A stretch of DNA of 64,000 bases from NCBI GenBank assembly GCA_000004985.1, contig GG738871.1, one strand, 5' to 3'. Within the stretch, counting starts at the first letter, position 1. The number at the start of each line of letters is the position of its first letter. Made by a program: the position numbers and the translations under genes. Shown piece by piece: positions 1-49,863 of this stretch. Origin of the DNA: Naegleria gruberi (taxonomy: Eukaryota). A model generated the notes under the pieces. That model saw only the letters and a program-made list of their open reading frames with translations, made no database searches and was not told the origin of the DNA.

Positions 1-1700
1 GCGGTCAATTCTGTGAAATTCCAAAATGTAATGGAACAATGCAAGGTGATAATTCAGTTTGCTCAGGACATGGTTCATGTGTTGGTGTTGACCTTTGTAA
101 TTGTAATTCAACTCACTGGGGAGGTAAATTCTGTGAAATTCCAAAATGTTTTGGAGTATTAGCCAATGAATCTAATGTTTGTTCAGGACATGGTTCGTGT
201 ATTGGTGCTGATTTGTGTTCCTGTAATTCCACATATTGGGGAGACGAGAACTGTCAAACAGCAAAATGTAATGGTATTTTAGCAACAGATGCAAGTGCTT
301 GTAATTATCAAGGAGTTTGTTCAGGAGCTGACTTGTGTGTTTGTAATTCAACATATGGCGGTCAATTTTGCCAAGTACCTAGATGCAATGGAACAATGCA
401 AGGTGATAATTCAGTATGTTCAGGACATGGTTCTTGTGTTGGTGTTGACAAATGTAATTGTAATTCAACATCACTGGGGAGGTCAATTCTGTGAAATTCC
501 AAAGTGTTTTGGAGTATTAGCCAATGAATCTAATGTTTGTTCAGGACATGGTTCGTGTATTGGTGCTGATTTGTGTTCCTGTAATTCCACATATTGGGGA
601 GATGAAAATTGTCAAACAGCAAAATGTAATGGTATTTTAGCTACTCAAACAAATAGTGTTTGTTATGGACATGGTTCTTGTGTAGATGCCGATGTTTGTA
701 ACTGTAATTCCACATATTGGGGTGGAGAATTCTGCAAATATCCAAAATGTTTTGGAATCTTATCCACAGAAGCAAATGCTTGTTCGGCACCAAACCAAGG
801 TTTATGTGTTGATGCAGACACTTGTGCTTGTAACTCAACTTATTGGGGAGATGAAAAGTGCCAAACATTCAAGTGTAACAATATTCTTTCCACGTCAGAC
901 TCTGTTTGTTATGGTCAAGGAGTGTGTGTAGCTGTAGATACTTGCGTTTGTAACTCAACATATGGAGGCCAATTTTGTCAAACACCAAAATGTAATGGTA
1001 CTTTGGCCGGGGATAACTTAGTATGTTCAGGACATGGTTCTTGTGATGGAGTTGACAAATGTAATTGTAATTCAACATATTGGGGAGGTCAATTCTGTGA
1101 AATTCCAAAATGTTTTGGAGTATTAGCCAATGAATCTAATGTTTGTTCAGGACATGGTTCATGTATTGGTGCTGATTTGTGTTCCTGTAATTCCACATAT
1201 TGGGGAGATGAAAATTGTCAAACAGCAAAATGTAATGGTATTCTGTCAACACAAACAAGTACTGTTTGCTACGGTCATGGTTCTTGTGTAGATGCCGATG
1301 TTTGTAATTGTAATTCCACATATTGGGGTGGAGAATTCTGCAAATATCCAAAATGTTTTGGAATCTTATCTACCGATTCTTCAACTTGTTCATTCCATGG
1401 CTTGTGTATTGATGCTGATTTGTGTTCATGTAACTCAACCCATTGGGGAGGTGAAAAGTGTGACATTCCAAAATGTAATGGAATTTTAGCAACAGATACA
1501 AATGTTTGTAATTATCAAGGAGTTTGTTCAGGAGCTGACTTGTGTGTTTGTAACTCAACATATGGAGGCCAATTTTGTCAAACACCAAAATGTAATGGTA
1601 CTTTAGCAGGTGATAGTTCAGTATGTTCAGGACATGGTTCATGTGACGGAGTTGACAAATGTACTTGCAACTCGACATATTGGGGAGGTCAATTCTGTCA
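1..1700 (+). repeat. Intragenic higher-order tandem repeat: a ~590-nt unit of six EGF modules, about 3 copies, near-identical at nucleotide level.
   Basis: Segments 110-270, 500-660 and 1090-1250 are almost identical (ggtcaattctgtgaaattccaaaatgttttggagtattagccaatgaatctaatgtttgttcaggacatggttc...). The block 1-360 recurs at 361-; protein blocks FCEIPKCFGVLANESNVCSGHGSCIGADLCSCNSTYWGDENCQTAKCNGIL recur three times. Confidence 0.7.
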
Positions 1701-4107
1701 AACTCCAAAATGTGATGGTATCTTAGCTTCCAATACTTCGACTTGTAATGGACAAGGTTCCTGTATCAATGCTGATGTTTGTATTTGTAATGATTACAAT
1801 CTTTGGGAAGGTAAATTCTGCCAAGTACCAATGTGTTACGGTAAACCACAAGGTGGATCTTCCACATGTAATAATGGAAATGGTACTTGTACATCTCCAA
1901 ATCACTGTTCCTGTAACTCTGGATATGTAGGCCCAGAATGTGAATATCCAGTTTGTTTCAATGTACCTAGCAATGACTCTTCAGTGTGTAACAATCGAAA
2001 CGGTACATGTATTTCACCTGATAAGTGTGCTTGTGAAAGTGGGTGGACTGGCGATAGTTGTCAAACACCAATCTGTTTCTCAATTTTGGGTAACTCTTCA
2101 GCTGTTTGTAGTCAAAGAGGTAGTTGTGTAGCTCCAAATTTTTGTGTTTGTAAGGATCATTATTATGGAGACGCATGTCAAAGAACTACTTGTTATGGTA
2201 TTGCTGATGATTCTAGTTCAACATGTTTTGGTCACGGTTCTTGTAGTGATTACAATACTTGTAATTGTTCATCAGGTTATGGTCCAGACAATTATTGTGA
2301 GCATCCAATATGTTATGGTTATTTAGCAAATGATACTAGAGTTTGTAACAATTCACGTGGTGTCTGTTTGAGTCCTGACGAATGTAGACCTTTGGACCCT
2401 GTATGTTTCGAAAAGGCAAAGAACGACAGTAATGTTTGCAGTGGTCATGGTAAATGTGTTGATTGGGATTATTGTGTTTGTAACACTTCAGATTATTATG
2501 GAGATCAATGTCAATATTGGAAATGTTTTACAAAGAATTACAACGCCTCAAATGTTTGTAATAACGGAAACGGTACCTGCTCATCTGTTAATAATTGTGT
2601 TTGCAACAGTGGATGGTATGGAAATGAATGTACAGTTCCAATGTGTAATGGAATTCTTGGTAATTCATCCCTCGTTTGTAACAATGGAAATGGTACCTGC
2701 TCCAAACCAGGTGCATGTCAATGTAATACTGGATATACAGGATCTGATTGTTCCATTCCAATTTGTTATGACAAATTAGCAAGTGACACAAGTAATGTTT
2801 GTTCAGGAAAGGGTTCTTGTGTTGCTAAGGATACTTGCTCTTGTCAAAACAAGTATACAGGTTATGAATGTCAATATGCCACATGTTATGGAGTTTCATC
2901 CAATTCTACAAGTGTCTGTAGTGGTAATGGTACATGTAACGGAGTTGATTCTTGTAATTGTTTATATGGTTATGGAGATTCTCAATGTAATGTTTTCAAA
3001 TGTTCCAATATTTTGGCTACTAGTAATAGCGTGTGTAGTGGAAGAGGTAAATGTTATGGAATTGATAAGTGTCAATGTGATACTGGTTACTATGGTCCTA
3101 ATTGTCAATATACCACTTGTAATGGTATTGCTGCTAACGACACTTCTGTATGTAATAGCAATGGTACCTGTACTGCTTATGAAACTTGTTCTTGCTCTGC
3201 TGATTGGTATGGCAAAAATTGTGACATTACTAAGTGTTACAATATCTTCTCAAATGATACAAGTGTTTGCAGTAGTAAGGGTAAATGTATCCTCAAGGAC
3301 AAGTGTGTCTGTACAGACATTAATTATGGTGGTTCTCAATGTGCCGATCCATACTGTTTTGGTTATTTGGCCGGAACTGTTGGAGTTTGTAGTGGAAATG
3401 GTCAATGTTTGGGAGTTAACTCTTGTAATTGTAATACTGGTTTCCTTGCCTCAAAGTGTCAATTCAAAACAATTAGTGGTATCTCTCTCACGTTCAATGC
3501 CTCTGCTGATTATGCCAATGAAACTCTCACCACCAAGGCAACTTTGTCAATTACTGACTCTTCATTCAGTACCTATTATGCTTCTACTAGCTTGAATGCT
3601 ACATTCTCATTTGTTTTCAATGGAGTTACATCAACATTCGACAAGATTCTCCCAGCCGGATCCAACAATGTTGAATTCATTCTTCCATTCTTCTACACTC
3701 AAAAAGGAACTGTTACCAGCTCTGTAACTCTCAAATTCACTGAAAGTACCACAACCATTACTGCAGGTCAAGCAACTGGTTCATCTTTAACCATTCAACA
3801 AAGAGTAATACCAACACCAACACCTACACCTATCAAATCATCACCAAAACCACAAGTTTCTCCAGCCAAATCCACCAACACTGTCAATCCAAAGGCCTCC
3901 ACTTCAACAACCACTAAGAGTGATTCCAATGTTGGAGGTGCCATTGCAGCTGGAGTCATTGTTCCATTAGTTGTAATTGGTGGAGGTGGTATCACTGCTG
4001 CCATCATTGCTGTTGTTGTCATTATGAAGAAGAAGGCCGCCACAGCAGCTGCCAGAGAACTTACCTATGCCACTCACTACGATGTTGAATTGGCTGAAGG
4101 TTACTGA
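1..4107 (+). CDS. EGF-like repeat type I membrane glycoprotein, family member C. 5-prime partial; enters the window in frame 3, shifts to frame 1 near 466-472, TGA stop at 4105-4107.
   Basis: About 35 tandem ~32-aa Cys-rich modules (CxxxGxCxxxDxCxCNSTYWGGxxCxxPKC, tenascin/EGF-like). They are followed by a ~170-aa Cys-free domain, a Thr/Pro-rich stalk, a hydrophobic helix GGAIAAGVIVPLVVIGGGGITAAIIAVVVI, and the tail KKKAATAAARELTYATHYDVELAEGY. The ORF 39..494 and the ORF 289..4107 are the same gene joined by a 1-nt insertion relative to sister repeat copies (compare 100-120 with 466-480). Confidence 0.75.
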
Positions 4108-4290: not shown

Positions 4291-5856
4291 ATGCCAGAAG
4301 CTGCTGTCCTTTATCAATACCTCAAAAAGCATTCATCACTCTCCGTGTTGGTGGCCGTAGCATCACTCTCCTATTTGACCATTAGTGAAGTTTTAACCCG
4401 ATACTTTAACTTGTCTTCGATGACAAATTCATCTTCATGTCCAAATAATAGTATATTGGGTAATTCACTTTCCGAATATTTAAAACAAGATAAAGAACAT
4501 GTTCATATTGTAGGAGGAGGAATTTCTGGTTTATTGATGGGATTTATGTGTAAGGAATTGAAAATTCCCTTCACAATTTATGAAGCCAATGAAAATTCGT
4601 GTGGTGGCTTGTTGGGAAGTGAAAGAATTGCATTCAATCATGATGAAGAGTGGATGATTGCGGAGAAAGCAGCAAATGGTGTAATGTGGACTCCTCAAGT
4701 GGAATTGTTGTGTGAAAGGATTGGATTGATGGAAAGAGTTTTGTCAACCAAGAAGGAGGCGAAAGCAAGGTTTTTTGTTAGGAATGGAAAGTTGACTCAA
4801 TTTCCTATCAGTTATTTGTCAGTGTTTAATTTGTTGACTTGGAGAATGTGGAAATTGCCAGTGAATAGCTCATTCCAAAGTTTGGATGATTATTTTGGAT
4901 TTTATTTTGGTGAGGAAATTAAGAATCAATTTTTGGAACCTGCATTTGCTGGAATTTTTGGAACGACTCTGAATAATTTATCAGTTTTTGGCACAACTGA
5001 AATATTTCCAAAATTATTGAGTCAATCTTTGAGTTTTCCAATTTCGTTGGTGAAAAACGTAATTTCTGAAGTGTGGAATGGAATATTTGGAAGAAAACAA
5101 ATGAAATCTTCAAATAGGAGAGGTACGCACAGTTTCCAATGTGGTGTTCAAGATTTGATTGACCATTTAGTTCGCCACTTGGGTACAAACAATATCAAGT
5201 TTGGATGTGAAATTAAGGATTTATCTCATTTCCCAAGTGGTCAGAGAGTAATTTTAACAACGCCTGCCTATCAGACATTGAATATTCTTCAAAGTAATCT
5301 CTCTACCACTGAAAATGGTAGAGAATTGATTGAATTATTATCTAAAATTAGATATACTCCAATAGGTACATGTACTGTGATTGTGGAAAGAAGCAAGTGT
5401 CCAAAATTAGAGAAAGGGTTTGGCTGTCTCATTCCTAGAAATGAAGGAATGCACATTTTGGGAGTCCTTTTCAATTCATCTATTTTTGAGAATAGAGTTT
5501 CACATGATGAGAGATTTGCCAGTCTTACTTGTATCATGCAAGATAATGAAAAAAGTGGAAAACTCTCTGATGAAGAGTTATTGGAAAATATTGTTTCTAA
5601 AGAGTTGAGTTTATTATTCATGAACTCAAAGGAGGAAAACATTTCCATTGTAAAGAGCTCAATGAAGAGGTGGAAGTATGGAATTCCAGTTTATGACCAT
5701 CATCTTTACAAGTCTTGGAGCTCAATTCATTCCATCATGAAACAAGATTTACCTAATGTTAATTTATTTGGAAACTATACGGGACAGATTTCTATTCGTG
5801 GTATGATTGGACAAGCTGTTGAGCTTTTGACTAGTTTGGAAAATAGAAAGCATTAG
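4291..5856 (+). CDS. FAD-dependent protoporphyrinogen oxidase (HemY/PPOX)-like oxidoreductase with an N-terminal ~75-aa hydrophobic extension.
   Basis: Rossmann dinucleotide motif HVHIVGGGISGL is present. EPAFAGIFGTTLNNLSV resembles the PPOX GIYAGD region, and the C-terminal NLFGNYTGQISIRGMIGQA resembles the PPOX C-terminus. Single 521-aa ORF, TAG stop. Confidence 0.6.
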   Translation: MPEAAVLYQYLKKHSSLSVLVAVASLSYLTISEVLTRYFNLSSMTNSSSCPNNSILGNSLSEYLKQDKEHVHIVGGGISGLLMGFMCKELKIPFTIYEANENSCGGLLGSERIAFNHDEEWMIAEKAANGVMWTPQVELLCERIGLMERVLSTKKEAKARFFVRNGKLTQFPISYLSVFNLLTWRMWKLPVNSSFQSLDDYFGFYFGEEIKNQFLEPAFAGIFGTTLNNLSVFGTTEIFPKLLSQSLSFPISLVKNVISEVWNGIFGRKQMKSSNRRGTHSFQCGVQDLIDHLVRHLGTNNIKFGCEIKDLSHFPSGQRVILTTPAYQTLNILQSNLSTTENGRELIELLSKIRYTPIGTCTVIVERSKCPKLEKGFGCLIPRNEGMHILGVLFNSSIFENRVSHDERFASLTCIMQDNEKSGKLSDEELLENIVSKELSLLFMNSKEENISIVKSSMKRWKYGIPVYDHHLYKSWSSIHSIMKQDLPNVNLFGNYTGQISIRGMIGQAVELLTSLENRKH

Positions 5857-7430
5857 AGTTTTGGTGGAATACCTCTACTGGATTGTGGTCTTTGTCGGGA
5901 TGGTGTTGAGAGGGAGATGAGTTTTCTTGAGAGAAGTGGTGTTCTAGTTGGATCCATAGTATTGGATGGCAGTGTCTTGTTTTGCTTTTGTACACCTAAG
6001 GATGAGAGAGGTGGTGTTTCTGGCGTTGGTGCTGTTACTTTCCTCTTGAGGAGTGGTTTATCTTTGAGTTGTGACCTATTTGGGAGACCAAGATCGTTTG
6101 CTTGATTTTCAACAAATGCTGCTTCTGTATTGTTGGACGATTGTTGTACTTCACTTGTGGATGACCTAGAAGAGGATGGAAGAATACTTTTTGAATTTGT
6201 GAGCGAGTTAATAGAAGATTGTTTTGATCCTAGTTGAGGAGTTGCTCTAGGTTGAAGGACAGAACGATTGGTGGAATTATTACTTGGTTGAGGGGTCTTA
6301 TTTGGTAATATAGATTTACCCTTCATTGGTGTTTTTGGATCTATATTTTCATTCATTGATAATCTGGCATTGTTGGAAAGTCTCGTATTTGTCATGTCAG
6401 AAAAACCTGAAGGAGATGATGGTGCTTGGTTCATAATTATGGAGAGACTCTCATTGAGATTTTGATTTGGAGAAGCTCTGATTGGACTCACACTTGGCAG
6501 TTTCGGTGAGGCAGATCTTAATTTTTCTGCCATGTTAGATGATGAACGTCTACCTGAATTGAAATCTTCCTTTTGATGATAATTAGTTGAACTCATTCTG
6601 GAAGAACTCTTTGTAGAGAGAGGTGACATTGAAGCAGCCACATGCTGATAATCACCAGAACCACCAATACCATTACTCATTCTCTGTTGCTGCATTCTTG
6701 AATTCATCATTGAATTGCCATTTCCTCTATTATTATTATTTACATAGGGAGTCATTGGTACTTCTCCCATCACTATTGCATGTTGATGATAATTCAAGCC
6801 TTTGTTTTGATGATCTTCATAGACAGGCTCTGCTCCATTATATTGTTGCTGATTATTAAACTCTGGAATCATCATTGAATTGACCAAGCCTCCTTGATGA
6901 TGAAGATGAAATTGATTCGGAATTGGATAACTAGGAGTTGGATTCTTCTTTTGATTATTGAGCATTTGAATTGTTTCCTTAAGGCTTTGATTTTCACTTT
7001 TTAATTGTCTAATAACATGTTCATAGTGAGAGTGTTGGAATTTGATTATTTCCTCCATCTTTGCAAGAGGCTCTTGGAAAACATTTCGATATTTAGAACT
7101 GACAAATTCGTATATATTCTTTGGAATGTGCTAGATATATATTATCAATATTATCAATTAATAATGAATAACCAACTCATTGGTTGATTAATTACATACC
7201 GATGCATCCATCAACGAAATAGCCTTACATTGTGTACGACAAACTTGACACTGAACATTTGATTGAGGTAAGGAGGAGGATGCTAAATGTTGTTGTTGTT
7301 GTTGTAGAATACAAGCCTCACATATAAAGTGTCCACATTCGAGAAAGTAGAATCCAATCGATCCAGCATCCCTCAAACAACTCAAACACTTGGGGATAAA
7401 TCCTGCTGCTGATGGTGTTGAAGAAGACAT
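5853..7430 (-). CDS. RING-finger (C3HC4-like) protein with short coiled coil and Ser/Asn/Gln-rich tail. Two exons, 7200..7430 and 5853..7130; intron 7131..7199 (GTATGT...TAG).
   Basis: Exon 1 encodes CLSCx13CGHxxCxxC...CxxC (KCLSCLRDAGSIGFYFLECGHFICEACI...CQVCRTQC). It splices in frame into IPKNIYEFVSSKYRNVFQEPLAKMEEIIKFQHSHYEHVIRQLKSENQSLKETIQML, then a long S/N/Q-rich tail. The architecture is reminiscent of Zip3/RNF212-type RING proteins (tentative). Confidence 0.5.
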
Positions 7431-23357: not shown

Positions 23358-25070
23358 TTATTTTTCAACTAATGGTATTAAGAAATGGTTTGGTATTTTA
23401 CAATCGAAATAGGTTTCAGTCATTCTGATTTTTCTGAGTTTTTCAAACTTTTCTCGTTTAGGAAAAAAGCAAAATCCGTTCTGTTTAGCAGCAATTTCGC
23501 TTATTGTTTCATCTTTACGATGCAATGGAGCATGATATAATAAAAATCCATTCTTTTTAACCAATTCCATTACAATATTTCGATTTTTTAAAATTAAAAA
23601 ATTCATTTCTTCTCTTCCAATTTTCACATTTGGATTACGGACTTTCCATAGCCTTTCGTCATTGGTCAACCTATCTGAAGCTCCAAAAAAAGACCCTTTA
23701 TATTTGACTGCTGCCTCAACAACCTCAATATCGTTCTTTAGTTCGCTTGCCTCAATAAGAACACTTTTTAAAATTGAATCATTTTTCAATAATCGAATAA
23801 TGAATTGCTTGTCTCTCTTCAGAGTTGGATCTAAGAGTCTCATAAAATTCTGACAATTATTGTTATTTTCCAAAAGGGATTCAATAAATTCTTTGTCATG
23901 TTGTAACTCATTAGAGGCAAATAGGAAAGCCTTACACTCTTTCTTTACAGCATGTGTTACGATAGATTTGTCATTAATCAACACATCAGATGCAGCTTCC
24001 AAAGCTGAAGGAAAATTTGATATGGCTTCCCATACAATTTCATAATCATTTCTGTAAATATAGGGACAATAACAAAGCACGCCCCCTGATTTTCTCACAG
24101 TTTGCAAAACCAAATCTCTGTCAATACTATCCTCTTTCATCTTTGGAAAAATATACTCTATTCCATTGACGGCCAATTGTAACATCTCTCTAACAAATAG
24201 ATCATCATTCTTTAACTCTTCAGATGCATACATCATTGCACTTCCATGGATTAATATTGATCTTTTTACAATTTCTCTATGATTTCGGAATTCAGGTTTG
24301 ATAAATTCAATAATATTTGCAAATAAAGAACATTCCAAAATAAAGTCAACATCTTGCTTCAGATCATCGGTTGCATATTTAAATTGATATCGATTTTTTT
24401 TCACACAATTCAAAACCAATTCTCTATTGGATTTTAGCTCATCAGGGAATGATTCTAGACATGAGAAATGTTTCAAAATTTCAATGTCATTATGAAATTC
24501 TTTGGGTAAAAGGTGTTTTAGATCGGTCGAATTCATTCTTGCTATCATCTCTTTATGCGTGAAAAACAATCTATCACTTGCCAATTCATCTAAATAGGGT
24601 AGTAATGTCTCTCCGATTTTTACTTGGTAAGGCTCAATATTAGAAAGGACGAATTCTCTATTATTTCTCAATTCTTTTGACGCAAATTGAAACATGTTTG
24701 GAAAAATCATACAACAATCTTTCACAATTTGTGGATTGTTTTTAACATGAAAAGGTGAATCTTCACATAGCTGAAAATAATATTCCAATCTGAGGTTATA
24801 TTCTAAATACCAATAAAAAAACTTTTGTGCTATTGGATTTTTCTTGCCATTAGAAATTACAAACTCAAAAACTTCTTTATCATCAGTAAATTCGAGAGGC
24901 AAAAATTTGAATCTGTCTGGGTTCTCAAAATGTAAACGTCTGTTTTCGAGATAAAGAAGAAATCCTTTTTGTTGAGTTTGAAATTTTCGGATTAAAAGTT
25001 TGACTTGATGAGAAATGCAATGATCAAAATCTATCAGATAGAGAGTGGTGTGATGTGTGCTTCCAGACAT
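23358..25070 (-). CDS. DUF4116-repeat protein.
   Basis: About 12 degenerate ~35-aa repeats of the form ELKNNREFVLSNI / DELKSNRELVLNCVKKNRYQFKYATDDLKQDVDFIL / ELKNDIEVVEAAVKYKG. Single 570-aa ORF. Confidence 0.6.
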   Translation of the reverse strand: MSGSTHHTTLYLIDFDHCISHQVKLLIRKFQTQQKGFLLYLENRRLHFENPDRFKFLPLEFTDDKEVFEFVISNGKKNPIAQKFFYWYLEYNLRLEYYFQLCEDSPFHVKNNPQIVKDCCMIFPNMFQFASKELRNNREFVLSNIEPYQVKIGETLLPYLDELASDRLFFTHKEMIARMNSTDLKHLLPKEFHNDIEILKHFSCLESFPDELKSNRELVLNCVKKNRYQFKYATDDLKQDVDFILECSLFANIIEFIKPEFRNHREIVKRSILIHGSAMMYASEELKNDDLFVREMLQLAVNGIEYIFPKMKEDSIDRDLVLQTVRKSGGVLCYCPYIYRNDYEIVWEAISNFPSALEAASDVLINDKSIVTHAVKKECKAFLFASNELQHDKEFIESLLENNNNCQNFMRLLDPTLKRDKQFIIRLLKNDSILKSVLIEASELKNDIEVVEAAVKYKGSFFGASDRLTNDERLWKVRNPNVKIGREEMNFLILKNRNIVMELVKKNGFLLYHAPLHRKDETISEIAAKQNGFCFFPKREKFEKLRKIRMTETYFDCKIPNHFLIPLVEK

Positions 25071-27638: not shown

Positions 27639-30600
27639 ATGGTTACTGGAGGCAATCTTTCAGTATCTTGCTTTAAACAAGATGTAAAATCAGTTAGAGG
27701 CCTCATTGTCCTTCTCTTGTTGATTCTCTGTTTGACAACAATTGAGAAATGTTGTGGATATTACTACACAATGAATACTGTTGGTACCTTCACTTCTGGA
27801 ACCACCTTGTATCAAATGGACAAGTCCAAATTCTTCGCTAACAGATTCTACGTAGCAACAAGTGGAGGTCTTCAGTATTTCACTGTATCAAGTGGTGTGG
27901 CAAATCCAAGTAATTCTTATGTGTATAGTGGTGGGTTTCAAACTACCAGTATGGCAAATGTTGTTGTCAGAAGTACATCATCAAGTAAAGATGATGTTTT
28001 TTCTGGTACCATTAACACCTCCACTTGGAGGTATGGTTCAATAGCCAGTTCAACCACTACTGGTAATTCACTCACCAGTTGTGGCGTTATTGTTGCTGGT
28101 GTAAAACTCGATGCAAGCTCTACAACTTTTTCTGTGATTGGCAATGGTGTTGTGGGTACATTAACAATGACAACAGGTGGTAGTGCATCTTGTTCTGCAG
28201 TTACCTCATTTACAGGAGTTTCTGGCACAAGTACCACGCCATCTACTGATGGCACAGGTAGCGCAGCTACTGTTTACTCTAGTGGTACTCATGACATTAC
28301 CAAAAATTCAACATCTGGTGTAAGTATGAGAAAATTCAATTAATTAGATCTAACAACTGGCAGGTTTATTATTTTACTGAGGATTCAAAGATTAGAAAGG
28401 TTGTTTCAACTACTATCACAACTCTGGTAGGAGGAACTACTGGTACAGTGACAGATGGTACTCTCTCCTCTGCTACAGTTAAAAATCCAAGTTTCATGTC
28501 CATCTTGGGTGCAGGTGTAAGTTTTATTGCATTGTTATGATATATTAAACTGTTAACAGCTTGTATTTTCGGATACTGGTAGTAATAGAATTAGAGTTTT
28601 GGATACAGCCAATGAAGAAGTTGTTACTATTGCTGGTGGTGGCTCAACTACCCCATCAGGTACTGCTTCACTATCTGGTGCAGCAACAGGTTTTTCTTTA
28701 ACTAGCCCAAGAGGCATTTATGTGGACACTGATGACAGTATTTATTTTGTTGAAGGAATTTATGTTAGAAAGCTTGTCTATTCTTGTGAAGCAAATGAAA
28801 TTTATCAAGCAGGCTCATTCCCACCATGTGCTTGTAATACTACTGCTGGTTATGTGAGATCTGGAACTTCTTGCGTACCTACCTGTTCCAATTGTAATGT
28901 CAATCAAACATGTACTGGTCCAGAAACTTGTTCTTGTAAGAGTGGATATTCAGGAACAGATTGTTCTGCTTTTACCTGTTTTGGTGTAGCTCAAGATTCT
29001 ACATCTGTTTGTAATTCTAAAGGATATTGTGTTGCACCTGACACGTGTATATGTAGTGATACCTCCACTTTCTTTGGGTCAAATTGTAATGTGACTTATT
29101 GTAATTCTATTCCATCAACGAGTGGTAGTGTTTGTTCAGGACATGGAAGTTGTACTGATTATAATACTTGTACTTGTAGTGATACCAATTCATGGACAGG
29201 ATCTGATTGTGGAACACCTGTATGTGCAGTTGTGAGTGGAGGTGTTTGTTCTGGAAGAGGTAGTTGTACAGCTCCAAATATTTGCACTTGTAATGAACCA
29301 TCAAAATATGGTGGATCTTCATGTGAAATTCCAAAATGTAATGGAACACTTCAAGGCAATTCTGGTGTTTGCAATGGAAGAGGTTCTTGTATTGATGTTG
29401 ATACTTGTCAATGCACTGTTCCAACCTCTTGGGGTGGTTCATTCTGTGAAAAACCATACTGCTCTGGAATTTTACAAGGTGCAGCTGGTGTTTGTTCAAA
29501 TAGAGGAGTTTGTTCATCTCCTGATTCTTGTGTTTGTAATGAACAAACAAAGTATGGTGGTTCAAATTGTCAACTTGTCAAATGTGGAGGTTATTTGGAA
29601 ACAGACTCTGCTGTTTGTAACAAGAATGGTTCATGTATTGCTGTTGATACTTGTTCCTGTAATTCAAATTATGGTGGTTCAGATTGTCAATATCCAAAGT
29701 GTAATGGCATTGCTTCGAATAGTGGTAGTGTTTGTAATTCACAAGGATCATGTGTTGCACCAAATGTTTGTGTCTGTAATTCAAATTATGCTGGACCATT
29801 ATGCGAATATCCAAAATGTAATGGCGTAGCTTCCAATGATGCAAGTGTTTGCAATTCGAATGGAACTTGTACTGGTGTTAATACTTGTGTTTGTAATGTT
29901 AACTATACAGGATCATATTGTCAATATCCAAAATGTAATGGAATATCTTCCAATGATGCAAGTGTTTGTAATAACAAAGGTGGTAATTGTATTGCACCAA
30001 ATGTTTGTTCATGTAATTCAAGTTATACTGGTCAATTCTGTCAATTCCCAAAGTGTAATGGTATTGGATCCAATGATGCAAGTGTTTGTAATGCAAATGG
30101 TACTTGTATTGGAATTAATGTTTGTTCATGCAATTCAAATTATGCTGGTCCATATTGTCAATATCCAAAATGTAATGGTATTGCTTCAAATAGTGGTAGT
30201 GTTTGTAATTCACAAGGATCATGTGTTGCACCAAATGTTTGCGCCTGTAATTCAAATTATGCTGGTACATATTGTGATAAACCAAGATGTGGAACCTTTT
30301 ATAAGGGAGATGCTTCTGTTTGTAATTCGAGAGGTAGTTGTGATGCTGTTGATAGTTGTACTTGTAGTGATACATCTTCTTGGGGTGGTAATTTGTGTCA
30401 ATATCCAAAATGTAATGGTGTTCTTTCAAATATTGGAACTGTTTGTAGCAGTAGAGGTACTTGTCAATCTCCAAACAATTGTTCATGCACTGATCCAAAT
30501 TCATATGGTGGTTCATATTGTGAAAAAGCAAAATGTTATGGAATTCTTCAAGGAGATTCAAATGTTTGCAGTGGACATGGTACTTGTAGTGGTGTGAATC

Positions 30601-32542
30601 AATGTTCATGCAGTGCTGGATATGGAGGTGAACAATGTCAATATCCAAAATGTTTCAATATTTTGAGTAATGAAACAACAGTTTGTAACAATAGAAACGG
30701 TACTTGTACTGCACCTGACACTTGTTCATGTAATAATGGATGGACTGGAAGCAAGTGTGATGTTGCCATTTGTTTTTCAATTCTCTCCAATTCAACAAGT
30801 GTTTGTTCAAACAAGAGAGGTAATTGTGTCACACCAGATAATTGTGTTTGTAAAAGTCAATATTCAGGTTCTCAATGTGAATATACCACTTGTTCTGGAA
30901 TAAGATCAGATCAACATCGACAGTATGTTATGGAAATGGTCAATGTATTGATTATTTACTTGTAATTGTACAACTGGTTATGGACCATCCAATGTATGTC
31001 AATATCCAATTTGTGGTGGTTATTTAGCAAATGATACCAGAGTTTGTAACAATTCAAGAGGTGTTTGTTCCAAACCAAATACATGTAGACCATTAGATCC
31101 CGTATGTTATGGTAAAGCTCAGAATAATTCAATGGTTTGCAGTGGAAATGGAGCATGTGTTGATTGGGATTATTGTGAATGTAAAACTGGTTTCAATGGA
31201 AATGAATGTCAAAATTGGGAATGTTATGGAAAGAATTATACCAACTCAAATGTTTGTAACAATAGAAATGGTACCTGTTCATCTGTGAATAATTGTGTTT
31301 GCAACAGTGGATGGTATGGAAATGAATGTACAGTTCCAATGTGTAATGGAATTCTTGCTAATTCATCTCTCATTTGTAACAATAGAAATGGTACCTGCTC
31401 CAAACCAGGTGCATGTCAATGTAATACTGGATACACAGGACCTGATTGCTCCATTCCAATTTGTTATGGAAAATTAGGCAAGTGACACAAGTAATGTTTG
31501 TTCAGGAAGAGCAGAATGTATTGGTTATAACAAGTGTAATTGTGACACTTCCAAGTATAGTGGTTCACAATGTGAATATTTCAAATGTTTTGGTATTCCA
31601 TCAAATGATGCTTCAGTTTGCAGCAGAAACGGAACATGCTCTGGAGTGAATCAATGTTCTTGTAATTATGGTTATGGTTCTTCAAATTGTGACATTTTCA
31701 CATGTTCAAACGTTCTTGCCACCGATTCGAGTGTTTGCACTGGAAAGGGTGTATGTTATGGAATTGACAAGTGTTCATGTGATTCAGGATATTTTGGATC
31801 AAATTGTGAAATTATCTCCTGTTATGGAATTCCAAAGTCCAACAATACTGTATGTGGAGGAGTTGGTGAATGTTCACAACTTGATACATGTGTTTGTGGA
31901 AGCAATTATAGAGGATCAATGTGTGAATTATCTTACACCTCTTCATCTCAAGCAACACTTCAATTCAATAATACGAATGAATATGTGAATGAACAATTCA
32001 CAAGCATGGCCACTTTGACAATTAATAATCCTCTCTTCGGTCAATATTATTTGAGAAGAAGTGTTCAAGTTGTTGTTTCATTTGAAATTAATTCACAATT
32101 CAGTTATTCTGAAACACTTTATATTGAAAATGGAGTTTCATCTGTTTCATTAATGGTGAAATCGTTGAGTCAAACTGGTACATTGAAAGCATCTGCTCAA
32201 TTAATTGATAATAGTACATTAATTTCCATTTCAGATAGCATTCAATCTTCAAATAGCATTACAATTCAAAATAGACCTATTGTTGTTCCATCCACAACGA
32301 CATCCACAATCAAACCAACAACCTCTGCACAAACAAGTAGAGCTGTTATCGATACAGGAAGTAATGGTGGAGCCATTGCAGCTGGTATCATTGTTCCAGT
32401 GGCAGTTATTGGAATTGGAGGTGGTGTCACTGCAGCCATTGTCACAGCAGTTGTTTTGTTAAAGAAGAAGGCTGCTGCAGCTGCTGCCAAAGAAATTACA
32501 CATGCTCAACACGTCAATGTTGAACTAGCTGAAGGTTTCTAA
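27639..32542 (+). pseudogene. NHL-propeller/EGF-repeat membrane protein paralog A. Exons 27639..28319, 28364..28516 and 28560..32542; three frameshifting indels near 30913, 30956 and 31480 relative to paralog B.
   Basis: Same architecture as B (44914..49716). 28860-32542 is ~98% identical to 46030-49716 at nucleotide level, but reading requires frames 0, 1 and 2 (ORFs 28599..30965, 31132..31485, 31646..32542). Could be a recent pseudogene or assembly indels. Confidence 0.55.
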
Positions 32543-32791
32543 TCTTGTTGATAAAAATTCATTACTGCTTTCTCCAAAATATTTTCAATGAAGTCATAAA
32601 GTTGATTTCCAAAACCAATAACTTACATCTTGTATTAAACCTTTATCTTGTTAGAGTTGGCAACATAATGATTTTTCATATTTATTTGGATGTTGTTTTG
32701 TAAACACACTTGTCGAATCAATCCATTGATTTTTGACAAGATCAACACAGTAGTAGCCCGATTAGTCCCTCCATTTTCCATTATAAAAAAA

Positions 32792-44913: not shown

Positions 44914-47900
44914 ATGAAACTAGTGAGCTTTCCCTATCATTTGTTGATTGCTGCTTGTGTAGTGTTACTTCTTGGCAAAGTTAGTGCATGGAGATATTCT
45001 GTGAAAACTCTTGCTACAGGTCTAGGCAGTATTTCTCAAATTGTTGGCTCTCCAAAATATATTTATGTTACACTTGGCTCCAGTTCAAAGAAGATTTATG
45101 CCTACGATAGACAATTATTGGCCACTCAGTCTGTACAAACATTGCAACAAGTCCACGATATAACAGCATCATCAAACAATATTGGTTATATTGCTTATCA
45201 TGGCAATGATTCGAATGACGCTGAAGTGATATCAGTAGCTGGCAATAATTTTCCAAACAATGTGGGTTTGTACTGGTTTACATGCTCATCAACCTGTTCC
45301 ACTCCAACACCCTTCTCTTATAATATAAGGGTCTCAGGAATTAGATCCCTAGGAATTGAGAACTCAACTCCCAAACTTTACATAACAAGACAAACAGCAA
45401 TTTACACTGGCACTCCTTCAGCAAATGCTATTGTATCAACAACTGGAACAATCAATTTTAAAGCTTTCAATGATGTTGATTATATTGGCAATACAGTAAG
45501 TTTTAATTATTTTGCAAATAGGTAACATTGGTTTAGGTTTATTTTACTGACTCAGGTGGAAACCTAAAAATTGCAACAAGTTCAACACCATTAATCAGTG
45601 TAGGCACATTTAGTGATGGTGCCAGTGGTACTGCTCGTTTATCTTCAGGCACAACATTCATCTCTGCACAGTTCAATAAGGTATGTAGTTATGAACAATA
45701 TGTTGTTGGAATAATTTTAAAAGATTTTTATCTCAGACACTGGAAACAGTAGAATTAGACTTTATGATATTGCTACAGGAATTACAACTACAATAGCTGG
45801 TGATCCTTCTAAATCAACAGCTGGAACAACAACTTTCAGTTTATCCGACGTACCAACTAATTACAAATTCACACCAACAGGTATTTGGATTGATAACTCT
45901 AATGGTATCATTTATTTTGCAGACACCAGTACCTTGAGAGCTTTAGTTCCAACTTGTAACAGTACTACAGAAGATCAATCTTCAACTTACCCTTTCTGTA
46001 CTTGTAAAACTGGATATTCATTGGTAAATGGAGATTGTGTTGCATCCACTAGTTGTTCTCCAGGATTGTGTAATGACAATCAAACATGTACTGGCCCAGA
46101 AACTTGTTCTTGTAAGAGTGGATATTATGGAACAAATTGTGATAATTATGACTGTTATGGAACTCAGAAGGATAATCTTTCTGTATGTAATGGAAAAGGT
46201 GTTTGCGTTTCTCCAAACACGTGTATTTGCACCAATGCAAACTATGATGGCTTTAATTGTAATATTACAACTTGTAATTCTATTCCATCAACGAGTGGTA
46301 GTGTTTGTTCTGGACATGGAAGTTGTACTGATTATAATACTTGTGCTTGTAGTGATACCAATTCATGGACAGGATCTGATTGTGGAACACCTGTATGTGC
46401 AGCTGTGAGTGGAGGTGTTTGTTCTGGAAGAGGTAGTTGTACAGCTCCAAATATTTGTACTTGTAATGAACCATCAAAATATGGTGGATCTTCATGTGAA
46501 ATTCCAAAATGTAATGGAACACTTCAAGGCAATTCTGGTGTTTGCAATGGAAGAGGTTCTTGTATTGATGTTGATACTTGTCAATGCACTGTTCCAACCT
46601 CTTGGGGTGGTTCATTCTGTGAAAAACCATACTGCTCTGGAATTTTACAAGGTGCAGCTGGTGTTTGTTCAAATAGAGGTGTTTGTTCATCTCCTGATTC
46701 TTGTGTTTGTAATGAACAAACAAAGTATGGTGGTTCAAATTGTCAACTTGTTAAATGTGGAGGTTATTTAGAAACAGACTCTGCTGTTTGTAACAAGAAT
46801 GGTTCATGTATTGCTGTTGATACTTGTTCCTGTAATTCAAATTATGATGGCCAATTTTGTCAATATCCAAAATGTAATGGCATTGCTTCAAATAGTGGTA
46901 GTGTTTGTAATTCACAAGGATCATGTGTTGCACCAAATGTCTGCTCTTGTTTCACAAATTATGCTGGACCATTATGCGAATATCCAAAATGTAATGGCGT
47001 AGCTTCCAATGATGCAAGTGTTTGTAGCTCGAATGGTACCTGTACTGGTGTTAATACTTGTGTTTGTAATGTTAACTATACAGGATCATATTGTCAATAT
47101 CCAAAATGTAATGGAATATCTTCAAACGATGCAAGTGTCTGTAATAACAAAGGTGGTAATTGTATTGCACCAAATGTTTGTTCATGTAATTCAAGTTATA
47201 CTGGTCAATTCTGTCAATTCCCAAAGTGTAATGGTATTGGATCCAATGATGCAAGTGTTTGTAGTGCAAATGGTACTTGTATTGGAATTAATATTTGTTC
47301 ATGCAATTCAAATTATGCTGGTCCATATTGTCAGTATCCAAAATGTAATGGCATTGCTTCAAATAGTGGTAGTGTTTGTAATTCACAAGGATCATGTGTT
47401 GCACCAAATGTTTGCGCCTGTAATTCAAATTATGGTGGTACATATTGTGATAAACCAAGATGTGGAACCTTTTACAAGGGAGATGCTTCTGTTTGTAATT
47501 CGAGAGGTAGTTGTGATGCTGTTGATAGTTGTACTTGTAGTGATACTTCTTCTTGGGGTGGCAATTTGTGTCAATATCCAAAATGTAATGGTGTTCTTTC
47601 AAATATTGGAACTGTTTGTAGCAGTAGAGGTACTTGTCAATCTCCAAACAATTGTTCATGCACTGATCCAAATTCATATGGTGGTTCATATTGTGAAAAA
47701 GCAAAATGTTATGGAATTCTTCAAGGAGATTCAAATGTTTGTAGTGGACATGGTACTTGTAGTGGTGTGAATCAATGTTCATGTAGTGCTGGATATGGAG
47801 GTGAACAATGTCAATATCCAAAATGTTTCAATATTTTGAGTAATGAAACAACAGTTTGTAACAATAGAAACGGTACTTGTACTGCTCCTGACACTTGTTC

Positions 47901-49716
47901 ATGTAAAAATGGATGGACTGGAAGCAAGTGTGATGTTGCCATTTGTTATTCAATTCTCTCCAATTCAACAAGTGTTTGTTCAAACAAGAGAGGTAATTGT
48001 GTCACACCAGATAATTGTGTTTGTAAAAGTCAATATTCAGGTTCTCAATGTGAATATACCACTTGTTCTGGAATAAGATCAGATCAAACATCGACAGTAT
48101 GTTATGGAAATGGTCAATGTATTGATTATAATACTTGTAATTGTACAACTGGTTATGGACCATCCAATGTATGTCAATATCCAATTTGTGGTGGTTATTT
48201 AGCAAATGATGCCAGAGTTTGTAACAATTCAAGAGGTGTTTGTTCCAAACCAAATACATGTAGACCATTAGATCCCGTATGTTATGGTAAAGCTCAGAAT
48301 AATTCAATGGTTTGCAGTGGAAATGGAGCATGCGTTGATTGGGATTATTGTGAATGTAAAACTGGTTTCAATGGAAATGAATGTCAAAATTGGGAATGTT
48401 ATGGAAAGAATTATACCAACTCAAATGTCTGTAACAATGGAAATGGTACCTGTTCATCTGTGAATAATTGTGTTTGTAACAGTGGATGGTATGGAAACGA
48501 ATGTACAGTTCCAATGTGTAATGGAATTCTTGGCAATTCATCTCTCGTTTGTAACAATAGAAATGGTACCTGCTCCAAACCAGGTGCATGTCAATGTAAT
48601 ACTGGATACACAGGACCTGATTGCTCCATTCCAATTTGTTATGGAAAATTAGGCACTGATACAAGTAATGTTTGTTCAGGAAGAGCAGAATGTATTGGTT
48701 ATAACAAGTGTAATTGTGACACTTCCAAGTATAGTGGTTCACAATGTGAATATTTCAAATGTTTTGGTATTCCATCAAATGATGCTTCAGTTTGCAGCAG
48801 AAACGGAACATGCTCTGGAGTGAATCAATGTTCTTGTAATTATGGTTATGGTTCTTCAAATTGTGACACTTTCACATGTTCAAATGTTCTTGCCACCAAT
48901 TCAAGTGTTTGCAGTGGAAAGGGTGTATGTTATGGAATTGACAAGTGTTCATGTGATTCAGGATATTTCAGTACCAATTGCGAGCTATTTTCTTGTTATG
49001 GAATTCCAAAGTCCAACAATACTGTATGTGGAGGAGTTGGTGAATGTTCACAACTTGATACATGTGTTTGTGGAAGCAATTATAGAGGATCAATGTGTGA
49101 ATTATCTTACACCTCTTCATCTCAAGCAACACTTCAATTCAATAATACGAATGAATATGTGAATGAACAATTCACAAGCATGGCCACTTTGACAATTAAT
49201 AATCCTCTCTTCGGTCAATATTATTTGAGAAGAAGTGTTCAAGTTGTTGTTTCATTCCAAATTAATTCACAATTCAGTTATTCTGAAACACTTTATATTG
49301 AAAATGGAGTTTCATCTGTTTCATTAATGGTGAAATCATTGAGTCAAACTGGTACATTGAAAGCATCTGCTCAATTAATTGATAATAGTACATTGATTTC
49401 CATTTCAGATAGTATTCAATCTTCAAATAGCATTACAATTCAAAATAGACCTATTGTTGTTCCATCCACAAAGACATCCACAACCAAACCAACAACCTCT
49501 GCACAAACAAGTAGAGCTGTTATCGATACAGGAAGTAATGGTGGAGCCATTGCAGCTGGTATCATTGTTCCAGTGGCAGTTATTGGAATTGGAGGTGGTG
49601 TCACTGCAGCCATTGTCACAGCAGTTGTTTTATTAAAGAAGAAGGCTGCTGCAGCTGCTGCCAAAGAAATTGCACATGCCCAACACGTCAATGTTGAACT
49701 AGCTGAAGGTTTCTAA
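44914..49716 (+). CDS. NHL-propeller/EGF-repeat type I membrane glycoprotein, paralog B (intact). Exons 44914..45495, 45546..45680 and 45724..49716.
   Basis: Signal peptide MKLVSFPYHLLIAACVVLLLGKVSA. NHL-like blades (VYFTDSGGNLKIA; IFISDTGNSRIRLYDIATGITTTIAG; GIWIDNSNGIIYFADTSTL). About 35 EGF/tenascin-like Cys modules, a Cys-free ~170-aa domain, Ser/Thr stalk, helix GGAIAAGIIVPVAVIGIGGGVTAAIVTAVVLL, and tail KKKAAAAAAKEIAHAQHVNVELAEGF. Introns GTAAGT...TTTAG and GTATGT...AAAAG. Confidence 0.8.
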
Positions 49717-49863
49717 TTGTTCATTATGATAGTTTGTCAATAATAAACTTTAAATTTTGATGTTTAGTGAAATGATGCTCAATTATTTAAATGGTTCGTA
49801 ATTGTCTCTCCTAACAAAATAGAAACTACAACCAAATCACAGGGCATCACAACACAAAATAAA

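What the first reader, a model, noticed from the sequence alone, without database searches (positions are those of the whole stretch)
3430..4107. Family-defining C-terminal module with conserved cytoplasmic tail ending VELAEG[FY]
Genes C, A and B (3430-4107; 31930-32542; 49100-49716) all end with the same elements. First a Cys-free beta-rich domain (…TLxIxxSxxxxxYxxxxSxxxxxSFxxNxxxS…). Then a Thr/Pro stalk and a helix starting GGAIAAGxIVP. Then the tail KKKAAxAAAxExxxAxHxxVELAEG[FY] immediately before the stop. Conservation of a short cytoplasmic tail across otherwise divergent paralogs suggests a sorting, adaptor or PDZ-like binding motif.
Basis: seen in the sequence. Interest (0 to 1): 0.55.

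Follow-up and report, generated by a model that had tools for sequence, protein, structure and literature searches.

The report
Conserved membrane anchor of amoeba EGF-proteins
Three giant EGF-repeat surface-protein genes of a Naegleria-like amoeba end in the same anchoring module (an Ig-like domain, a mucin-like stalk, one membrane helix and a 26-residue cytoplasmic tail), and the tail is conserved across species, so it most likely carries a trafficking signal; this is real but fairly ordinary.

Summary
All three + strand genes (C 3430-4107, A 31930-32542, B 49100-49716) end with the same five elements:
- a Cys-free domain, which AlphaFold2 models as an Ig-like beta-sandwich (pLDDT above 90);
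- a Ser/Thr/Pro stalk;
- a membrane helix starting GGAIAAGxIVP;
- a KKK stop-transfer;
- a 26-residue tail ending VELAEG[FY] directly before the stop.

A and B are 96% identical in DNA, so they count as one data point. C is old (28% identity in the Ig-like domain, dS about 1), yet its helix and tail are 65-68% identical to A/B (dN about 0.2).

A full HMMER scan of 1.84 billion proteins found the module only in Naegleria lovaniensis, N. gruberi and a few metagenome fragments, always behind EGF arrays. It has no Pfam family.

The exact VELAEG[FY] ending belongs to one sub-clade. The family-wide core is KKK, then 15-18 residues, then [D/N/Q]-x-[E/D]-[L/M], placed 1-5 residues from the C-terminus (VELA, VELIY, FELAQGF, FEMK, MEMRE). 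This argues against a PDZ ligand.

The core fits a VSV-G-like di-acidic (DxE) ER-export or sorting signal. That reading is inferred, not shown. An adaptor or rhomboid-shedding role is not excluded.

Overall this is an undescribed, lineage-specific module of modest interest.

The parts
3430..3462 (+). Gene C: end of the last EGF-like repeat (CNTGFLASKCQ), immediately upstream of the module
   Evidence: EGF_2 and teneurin-type EGF Pfam hits across the upstream array
3463..3804 (+). Gene C: Cys-free membrane-proximal Ig-like beta-sandwich domain (114 aa)
3805..3933 (+). Gene C: Ser/Thr/Pro-rich stalk (43 aa, 58% S/T/P), about 15 aa longer than in A/B
   Evidence: Predicted disordered, pLDDT below 50.
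3934..4026 (+). Gene C: transmembrane helix GGAIAAGVIVPLVVIGGGGITAAIIAVVVIM (rich in small residues, with one Pro and a Gly cluster)
   Evidence: 68% identical to B with dN 0.21 and dS 1.07. Helix in the model.
4027..4104 (+). Gene C: 26-residue cytoplasmic tail KKKAATAAARELTYATHYDVELAEGY; stop codon at 4105-4107
   Evidence: Invariant or near-invariant positions in the sub-clade: K1-3, A9, A15, D19, E21, L22, G25.
4081..4092 (+). Gene C: core motif D-V-E-L, the family-wide [D/N/Q]-x-[E/D]-[L/M], with 4 residues between it and the C-terminus
31928..32275 (+). Gene A: Ig-like domain (116 aa)
32276..32365 (+). Gene A: Ser/Thr/Pro stalk
32366..32461 (+). Gene A: transmembrane helix GGAIAAGIIVPVAVIGIGGGVTAAIVTAVVLL
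32462..32539 (+). Gene A: tail KKKAAAAAAKEITHAQHVNVELAEGF (core NVEL at 32516-32527); stop at 32540-32542. Upstream, the gene is broken by 1-nt indels at 30913, 30956 and 31480.
49102..49449 (+). Gene B: Ig-like domain (116 aa)
49450..49539 (+). Gene B: Ser/Thr/Pro stalk
49540..49635 (+). Gene B: transmembrane helix
49636..49713 (+). Gene B: tail KKKAAAAAAKEIAHAQHVNVELAEGF (core NVEL at 49690-49701); stop at 49714-49716
44914..45525 (+). Probable first exon of gene B with a signal peptide (MKLVSFPYHLLIAACVVLLLGKVSA). It supports a type I topology, with the ectodomain outside and the tail in the cytosol.
   Evidence: The full-length N. gruberi homologue P0024 also starts with a signal peptide, followed by NHL-type repeats. 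Assigning this exon to gene B is an inference.

Best explanation
The three segments are the C-terminal anchoring module of a family of giant type I surface proteins. The family is restricted to heteroloboseans (Naegleria-type amoebae).

Architecture of the family, from N to C: signal peptide, an NHL-like N-terminal region, about 30-35 teneurin-type EGF repeats, then the module. The module consists of:
- a membrane-proximal Ig-like beta-sandwich;
- a mucin-like Ser/Thr/Pro stalk;
- one transmembrane helix;
- a 26-residue cytosolic tail.

The tail begins with a KKK stop-transfer and an Ala-rich stretch. It ends with [D/N]-Phi-[E/D]-L followed by 1-5 residues. It is kept by purifying selection.

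Most likely mechanism (inferred, not shown): the tail is a linear trafficking signal of the di-acidic DxE class, as in VSV-G YTDIEM. Sec24 of the COPII coat would read it to export these very large, disulfide-rich cargoes from the ER toward the cell surface. The free C-terminal hydrophobic residue of the sub-clade (G-F/Y/L) may add a PhiC-like contact at the same Sec24 B site.
For: Anatomy:
- ORFs and alignment.
- Pfam finds only EGF families upstream and nothing for the module or for TM plus tail.
- AlphaFold2 gives a confident beta-sandwich, a disordered stalk and a helix.

Family and taxon:
- The HMMER scan of 1.84e9 representatives gave 22 hits. Those carrying the Ig-like domain are N. lovaniensis, N. 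gruberi or metagenome fragments, and all sit behind EGF arrays.
- L004 holds a complete 1181-aa ORF of the same architecture.

Selection:
- C against B, TM plus tail: 67% identity, dN 0.22, dS 0.79. Ig-like domain: 28% identity, dN 0.89, dS 1.36.
- The tail is the most conserved region family-wide.

Motif:
- In the 13 aligned tails, the acidic residue followed by L/M is invariant (12 E, 1 D).
- The residue two positions before it is D in 9 tails, N in 3 and Q in 1.
- The motif lies 13-18 residues after the basic stop-transfer and 1-5 residues from the end.

Literature:
- DxE, LxxLE and PhiC signals all bind the Sec24 B site through a carboxylate: PMC5464768.
- VSV-G uses YTDIEM: PMC3779271.
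- Sec24 was found in all eukaryotes sampled, and N. gruberi served as a query genome in that survey: PMC4419792.
Against: - No functional data exist for any member.
- [DE]x[DE] is a low-information motif. Genes A and B themselves have N-V-E, so strictly only one acidic residue.
- Conservation extends well beyond four residues (KKK, A9, K10-E11-I12, A15, H17, G25). A minimal DxE signal does not explain this, and it suggests a longer interface.
- The conserved positions do not fall on one helical face (conservation moment 0.12-0.15), so no helix-docking model is supported either.
- PMC3779271 reports that tail secondary structure alone can speed ER exit, so any effect need not depend on the motif.
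- The strongly conserved TM helix is not explained by an ER-export signal.
Confidence: 0.45

Rival explanations
1. Adhesin-type anchor. The tail binds a cytosolic adaptor that couples the EGF ectodomain to the actin cortex during amoeboid crawling or phagocytosis. The helix, rich in small residues and containing a Pro (GGAIAAGxIVP...GGGG), serves either for helix-helix packing or as a rhomboid-type intramembrane cleavage site that sheds the ectodomain. This would be analogous to apicomplexan TRAP/MIC2.
For: - The TM helix is as conserved as the tail (68% against 28% for the ectodomain domain). Its exoplasmic third is made of Gly/Ala, followed by a family-wide V-P.
- TRAP's canonical rhomboid motif is AGGIIGG in the TM helix, and its cleavage is needed for motility (PMC3406075).
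- Tail conservation spreads over about 15 positions, more than a minimal sorting motif needs.
- The tail is acidic near its end, and the sub-clade has a terminal aromatic residue.
Against: - No homology to TRAP/MIC2, integrin-beta or Sib tails. There is no NPxY and no subterminal Trp.
- The GGAIAAGxxVP helix start also occurs in unrelated Ser/Thr-rich type I proteins of other eukaryotes (P0013-P0022; L003; more than 600 pattern matches). It may be a generic helix design.
- No adaptor candidate was identified.
Confidence: 0.25
2. PDZ-type (class III, [D/E]-x-Phi-COOH) or other ligand that reads the free C-terminus.
For: C, A, B, P0001, P0003 and P0008 end E-G-[F/Y/L], which fits [D/E]-x-Phi-COOH.
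Against: - Other family members keep the upstream core but differ at the end. Examples are ...DVELA (N. gruberi P0024, a full-length model)...DVELIY (P0002, stop confirmed in DNA)...ANGC...AQGF...FEMK...MEMRE.
- Positions -2 and 0, and the register to the carboxylate, are therefore not conserved.
- Whether Naegleria has suitable PDZ proteins was not tested.
Confidence: 0.07
3. No specific function. The similarity only reflects recent duplication or gene conversion among clustered paralogues, plus generic constraints (positive-inside KKK, helical Ala-rich juxtamembrane segment).
For: - A and B are 96% identical. The identity stops 1-3 nt after the stop codon and starts inside the EGF array, with unrelated flanks. 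This is a gene-conversion signature.
- dS in the tail between C and B is lower (0.49, only 26 codons) than in neighbouring regions (1.07-1.36).
Against: - The tail is conserved between species and between deep paralogues whose ectodomains are 16-32% identical.
- dN/dS is about 0.28 in TM plus tail.
- The acidic-then-L/M core (E in 12, D in 1) is invariant in 13 of 13 tails.
Confidence: 0.05

Closest known systems
Uncharacterised Naegleria 'EGF-like domain-containing' or 'Teneurin NHL domain-containing' proteins (N. lovaniensis C9374_014632 / XP_044553224.1 and C9374_010972; N. gruberi NAEGRDRAFT_59108, NAEGRDRAFT_70644)
   Same: Same architecture and a homologous C-terminal module: Ig-like domain, stalk, TM helix with V-P, KKK, then ...D-V/F-E-L... 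(E-values 2e-44 to 1e-12).
   Different: - Only 25-38% identical to gene C in the module.
- The endings differ (VELANGC, FELAQGF, VELA, FEMK).
- None has been studied, and the module has no Pfam or published description that I could find.
VSV-G cytoplasmic tail and other di-acidic (DxE) ER-export signals (Sys1 DLE and Gap1 DID recalled from memory; VSV-G YTDIEM from PMC3779271 and PMC5464768)
   Same: - A short tail on a type I membrane protein.
- D-Phi-E-[L/M] about 18-20 residues from the membrane, followed by a few residues.
- P0009 reads DMEM and P0012 reads QIEM, against VSV-G DIEM.
   Different: - No homology, only a motif-level resemblance.
- A and B have N in place of the first acidic residue.
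- There is no Tyr upstream in most members.
- Binding to Sec24 is untested.
Apicomplexan TRAP/MIC2-family adhesins
   Same: - A type I adhesive ectodomain on a motile protist.
- A TM helix whose exoplasmic end is Gly/Ala-rich (AGGIIGG against GGAIAAG).
- A short acidic tail with an aromatic residue at or near the end.
   Different: - Different ectodomain domains (TSR/vWA against EGF/NHL/Ig-like).
- No subterminal Trp.
- Not homologous.
- Cleavage and an actin link are untested here.
Giardia VSP/HCMP cysteine-rich surface protein families with a conserved TM helix and CRGKA tail (bioRxiv 10.1101/2022.03.07.483299, listed; tail sequence recalled from memory)
   Same: A protist-specific, multi-copy, Cys-rich type I surface family whose most conserved part is the C-terminal TM helix plus a short cytoplasmic tail.
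   Different: - Unrelated sequences (CXXC motifs, 5-residue tail).
- A different phylum.
- No evidence here of antigenic variation.
Metazoan teneurins
   Same: Pfam's teneurin-type EGF and NHL models match the ectodomain.
   Different: Teneurins are type II proteins with an N-terminal cytoplasmic domain and a YD-shell/Tox-GHH C-terminus. These proteins are type I with a C-terminal anchor. They are not members.

Membership tests
Naegleria-type EGF-array surface proteins carrying this C-terminal module (unnamed family) | The Cys-free Ig-like domain directly follows the last EGF repeat and is detectable by profile HMM | tested here: met
   The A2 profile hits P0004 (2e-44), P0005, P0006, P0009-P0012, P0014 and P0024 across the domain. 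AlphaFold2 gives a beta-sandwich with pLDDT above 90.
Naegleria-type EGF-array surface proteins carrying this C-terminal module (unnamed family) | A single TM helix with the conserved ...A-I-A-x-G/A-x-x-V-P start, followed by a basic stop-transfer | tested here: met
   Present in C, A, B and in 11 of 13 external members. P0011 (GPI-like end) and P0014 (truncated model) lack it.
Naegleria-type EGF-array surface proteins carrying this C-terminal module (unnamed family) | A cytoplasmic tail with [D/N/Q]-x-[E/D]-[L/M] 1-5 residues from the C-terminus | tested here: met
   13 of 13 tails.
Di-acidic (DxE) COPII ER-export signals | A [D/E]-x-[D/E] sequence in a cytosolic segment of a membrane cargo | tested here: inconclusive
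   Met in gene C (DVE) and in 9 of 13 family tails. Genes A and B have NVE, P0005 has NFE and P0012 has QIE.
Di-acidic (DxE) COPII ER-export signals | Binds the Sec24 B site, and mutation slows ER exit | not testable with these tools
   Needs peptide binding or a trafficking assay.
PhiC (C-terminal hydrophobic) ER-export signals | Two terminal hydrophobic residues, or a terminal Val | tested here: not met
   C, A and B end G-Y or G-F. Only P0002 (IY), P0010 (VL), P0012 (GV) and P0024 (LA) come close. The definition is from PMC5464768.
PDZ class III ligands | [D/E]-x-Phi at the free C-terminus, conserved in register | tested here: not met
   Met in the sub-clade (E-G-F/Y/L). Across the family the register and residues are not conserved: VELA, VELIY, ANGC, AQGF, FEMK, MEMRE.
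Teneurins | Type II topology with an N-terminal intracellular domain, a YD-repeat shell and a toxin-like C-terminus | tested here: not met
   The TM helix is C-terminal with KKK on its C-terminal side, and there are N-terminal signal peptides. Pfam matches only EGF and NHL models.
Rhomboid substrates (TRAP/MIC2/Spitz type) | Helix-relaxing small residues in the exoplasmic part of the TM helix | tested here: inconclusive
   GGAIAAG plus Pro and a GGGG cluster are present. The same helix start is common in unrelated proteins.
Rhomboid substrates (TRAP/MIC2/Spitz type) | Actual intramembrane cleavage by a rhomboid protease | not testable with these tools
   Requires biochemistry.
Tyrosine (YxxPhi / NPxY) or dileucine ([DE]xxxL[LI]) endocytic signals | The motif is present and conserved in the tail | tested here: not met
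   No NPxY. No conserved Tyr (A and B have none). No LL/LI pair after an acidic residue.

The most novel reading that the evidence does not exclude
The module is the anchor of a heterolobosean adhesin system that works like apicomplexan TRAP/MIC2. The conserved tail would couple the EGF ectodomain to the actin cortex through an unknown adaptor. The Gly/Ala/Pro-rich helix would be cut by a rhomboid protease to release adhesion sites during fast amoeboid crawling. This would be an independent origin of the 'adhesin, actin link, intramembrane shedding' logic in a free-living relative of the brain-eating amoeba.
Probability: 0.1. Interest if true: 0.6.

Novelty: new member of a known kind. Interest (0 to 1): 0.3.

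Why it matters
Naegleria-type amoebae encode many giant EGF-repeat surface proteins that nobody has studied. This analysis shows two things:
- A subset shares a specific anchoring module.
- The 26-residue cytoplasmic tail and the membrane helix evolve much more slowly than the ectodomain.

That gives a short, concrete handle for asking how these proteins are trafficked, anchored or shed. The handle is KKK, then 15-18 residues, then D-Phi-E-L near the C-terminus. It could also serve as a portable surface-targeting tag for Naegleria cell biology.

It changes no general concept. Type I proteins with conserved tail motifs are commonplace.

Tried and rejected
**Searches that added little**
- Word-index protein searches returned only 1-3 metagenome fragments. 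They missed even the Naegleria sequences included in the query alignment. Low-complexity words (KKKAA, TTT, AAAA) swamp candidate selection. The census rests on the exhaustive HMMER scan.
- The JGI metagenome scan gave one locus, L003. It matches only the GGAIAAG helix start and is not a family member.
- An exact look-up of a neighbouring window protein found nothing. The genome of the window is not in the collection, so the species could not be named. N. gruberi, N. lovaniensis and (by inference) N. fowleri are excluded by divergence.
- The afdb50 fold library was unavailable.
- Rfam found nothing in the window.
- Pfam at E up to 5 on TM plus tail gave only noise: CEND1 and DUF6353.
- Literature searches for the Naegleria family found nothing specific.

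**Ideas tested and dropped**
- A helical-wheel test asked whether conserved tail positions form one face. They do not (moment 0.12-0.15), so I dropped an amphipathic-helix docking model.
- I considered that P0002's odd ending (VELIY) was a frameshift of VELAEGF. The DNA gives no simple frameshift that restores it.
- I considered operon-like functional linkage with neighbours (calpain, ZIP transporter, myosin-V tail, DUF4116). I rejected it because this is a eukaryotic locus with unrelated genes.
Full report
**1. What is in the sequence**

The window is eukaryote-like. GC is 31-38%, and the neighbouring genes are calmodulin, calpain, a ZIP transporter, a myosin-V-type DIL tail and DUF4116.

Three long + strand ORFs encode arrays of about 30-35 EGF-like repeats:
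- gene C, 289..4107;
- gene A, 28599..32542, in three frames;
- gene B, 45934..49716.

Pfam matches them to EGF_2, EGF_TEN and EGF_Teneurin with E-values of 1e-36 to 1e-60.

After the last EGF repeat come:
- a Cys-free domain of 114-116 residues;
- a stalk that is 53-58% Ser/Thr/Pro;
- a hydrophobic helix beginning GGAIAAG[VI]IVP;
- KKK;
- a 26-residue tail ending VELAEG[YF], immediately before the stop.

A six-frame pattern scan finds these elements nowhere else in the 64 kb.

**2. How independent the three copies are**

A and B are 96% identical in DNA from 28893/46069 to 1-3 nt past the stop codon. Their 3' flanks and N-terminal exons are unrelated. This pattern fits gene conversion better than a plain recent segmental duplication.

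Either way, A and B count as one observation. A also carries three 1-nt indels relative to B, and C carries one near position 472. These are either pseudogenes or assembly errors in repeats. The C-terminal modules themselves are intact.

Gene C is an old paralogue. Comparing C with B by region (Nei-Gojobori):

| Region | Identity | dN | dS |
|---|---|---|---|
| Ig-like domain | 28% | 0.89 | 1.36 |
| TM helix | 68% | 0.21 | 1.07 |
| Tail | 65% | 0.22 | 0.49 |

The regions are small, so the errors are large. Even so, synonymous divergence is substantial. The helix and tail are therefore held by purifying selection rather than by recency alone.

**3. Structure**

I modelled gene C's module with a 16-sequence alignment in AlphaFold2.
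- Residues 1-120 form a confident beta-sandwich (block pLDDT 90-97).
- Residues 136-176 form a disordered stalk (pLDDT below 50).
- Residues 177-212 form one continuous helix covering the TM segment and tail (pLDDT 50-73).

**4. Who else has it**

Word-index searches were nearly blind for this family. An exhaustive HMMER scan of 1.84 billion cluster representatives with a 6-sequence profile gave 22 hits.

The hits that cover the Ig-like domain all sit behind EGF arrays. They come from Naegleria lovaniensis, N. gruberi or ENA metagenome fragments.
- N. lovaniensis: P0004, P0006, P0009, P0012, P0014.
- N. gruberi: P0005, P0011, P0024.

One metagenome contig (L004) holds a complete 1181-residue ORF with the same architecture. 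The remaining hits (P0013-P0022) and a JGI contig (L003) share only the GGAIAAGxxVP helix start. They are unrelated Ser/Thr-rich type I proteins.

The window's own genome is not in the collection. Its closest relatives are metagenomic; P0001 is 72-77% identical to gene C's module. The organism is probably a heterolobosean amoeba outside the sequenced Naegleria species. That is an inference.

Full-length N. gruberi P0024 has a signal peptide and NHL-type repeats ahead of the EGF array. The putative first exons of A and B have signal peptides too. Together with KKK on the C-terminal side of the helix, this supports a type I topology with the tail in the cytosol.

**5. What is conserved in the tail**

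Tails across the family:

| Member | Ending |
|---|---|
| C | ...HYDVELAEGY |
| A, B | ...HVNVELAEGF |
| P0001 | ...YDVELAEGF |
| P0003 | ...VDIDLVEGF |
| P0008 | ...VDVELVEGL |
| P0002 | ...VDVELIY (stop checked in DNA) |
| P0004 | ...LDVELANGC |
| P0006 | ...EDFELAQGF |
| P0024 | ...TDVELA |
| P0005 | ...NNFEMK |
| P0009 | ...NDMEMRE |
| P0010 | ...DDREMVVL |
| P0012 | ...NQIEMTGV |

VELAEG[FY] is the sub-clade version. The family-wide invariant has three parts:
- a basic stop-transfer;
- 13-18 residues after it, [D/N/Q]-x-[E/D]-[L/M];
- 1-5 residues between that core and the C-terminus.

Within the sub-clade, K1-3, A9, A15, L22 and G25 are invariant. D19, E21, A4, A5, I/L12 and H17 are nearly so.

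Family-wide, the tail is the most conserved region. Mean pairwise identity is 0.42 for the tail, 0.36 for the TM helix and 0.28 for the Ig-like domain.

One member, P0011, keeps the Ig-like domain but ends in a GPI-signal-like hydrophobic stretch. The tail is therefore typical of the family but not universal.

**6. Mechanism**

Shown:
- the anatomy;
- the phyletic restriction;
- purifying selection on the helix and tail.

Inferred: what the tail does. I weighed the options as follows.

- **PDZ-type or other carboxylate-reading ligand.** This is disfavoured. The terminal residues, and the register to the carboxylate, vary while the upstream core stays fixed.
- **Tyrosine, NPxY and dileucine signals.** These are absent.
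- **Di-acidic DxE ER-export signal.** This is the only established motif class that fits the core.
  - D-V-E, D-I-D, D-F-E, D-M-E and D-R-E occur in 9 of 13 tails, each followed by L or M. VSV-G's YTDIEM has the same form (PMC3779271).
  - The motif lies at a similar distance from the membrane as in VSV-G. That comparison rests on the VSV-G tail sequence from memory.
  - DxE, LxxLE and C-terminal hydrophobic (PhiC) signals all dock through a carboxylate at the Sec24 B site (PMC5464768).
  - Sec24 was found in every eukaryote sampled (PMC4419792).
  - Efficient ER export is a plausible need for cargoes with about 200 disulfide-forming cysteines.

Three points weigh against the di-acidic reading:
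- A and B have N at the first position.
- The motif has low information content.
- Conservation covers about 15 positions plus the whole helix, more than a minimal export code requires.

The main rival is an adhesin-style anchor. In this reading the tail binds a cortical adaptor. The Gly/Ala/Pro-rich helix (GGAIAAGxIVP...GGGG) mediates packing or rhomboid-type shedding, as with the AGGIIGG motif of TRAP (PMC3406075).

Against this rival, the helix start is common in unrelated proteins, and conserved tail positions do not form one helical face.

I put about 0.45 on the combined statement (anchoring module with a di-acidic-type trafficking tail). The anatomy and family part alone is about 0.9. 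The adaptor/shedding reading gets 0.25, PDZ 0.07 and 'no specific function' 0.05.

**7. Comparison with known families, and novelty**

The genes are members of an existing but uncharacterised set of Naegleria 'EGF-like domain-containing' proteins.
- They are not teneurins. The topology is wrong and there is no YD shell.
- They are not TRAP/MIC2 homologues.
- They are only analogous to Giardia VSP/HCMP families, which also keep a conserved TM helix plus short tail.

I found no Pfam model and no paper describing the module. I rate it a new member of a known kind: a lineage-specific type I surface family with a conserved tail motif.

Interest is modest (0.3). It is useful to Naegleria cell biologists as a defined candidate sorting or anchoring signal, but it is not surprising in principle.

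Noticed in passing
window 28893-32543 vs 46069-49717: Genes A and B are 96% identical in DNA only from inside the first EGF repeats to 1-3 nt past the stop codon. Their 3' flanks and N-terminal exons (27639-28343 vs 44914-45525) are unrelated. This looks like gene conversion or concerted evolution between clustered paralogues rather than a simple segmental duplication.
   Followed up: partly
window 30913, 30956, 31480 (gene A) and about 471-474 (gene C): Single-base indels break gene A into three reading frames relative to gene B. A further indel shifts gene C's frame inside an EGF repeat (AACATCACTGG against the paralogous AACAT-ATTGG near 1069). These are either young pseudogenes or assembly/polishing errors in repetitive DNA.
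   Followed up: partly
window 1-1800 (gene C): Gene C contains near-identical internal tandem blocks of several EGF repeats. For example, ...GQFCEIPKCFGVLANESNVCSGHGSCIGADLCSCNSTYWGDENCQTAKCNGIL... recurs three times, and the DNA copies are 94% identical. This indicates recent intragenic repeat expansion.
   Followed up: no
P0013-P0022; L003 1797-2030: The helix start [SN]GGAIAAG[IV]x[VI]P, directly after a Ser/Thr/Pro-rich stalk, recurs in unrelated small type I proteins from other eukaryotes. It also recurs in more than 600 JGI metagenome stretches. It appears to be a widespread, possibly convergent, TM-entry design.
   Followed up: partly
P0011 (N. gruberi NAEGRDRAFT_49505), C-terminus: This family member has the Ig-like domain but no KKK tail. 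It ends ...SSAISLFSNVALISTVLVVGVVFY, which looks like a GPI-anchor signal. The family may use two anchoring modes.
   Followed up: no
L004 301-3846 and 3894-6250: This metagenome contig (ERZ27315067) carries a complete 1181-aa homologue ending ...HVDIDLVEGF. Two tandem actin genes follow it directly.
   Followed up: partly
window 33190-34560 (+): A right-handed beta-helix (pectate-lyase-like) protein with a Thr/Pro-rich stretch and a C-terminal hydrophobic end (...AAVGSFVSTLALVFVALVVMFTLN). It is probably another surface protein, GPI-anchored or tail-less, lying just downstream of gene A.
   Followed up: no
window 23358-25070 (-) and 5853-7058 (-): One protein has eight DUF4116 repeats, and another ORF is rich in Asn/Gln/Ser low-complexity sequence. 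Both are typical of amoeba-like genomes. They were noted only as context for the taxonomic guess.
   Followed up: no
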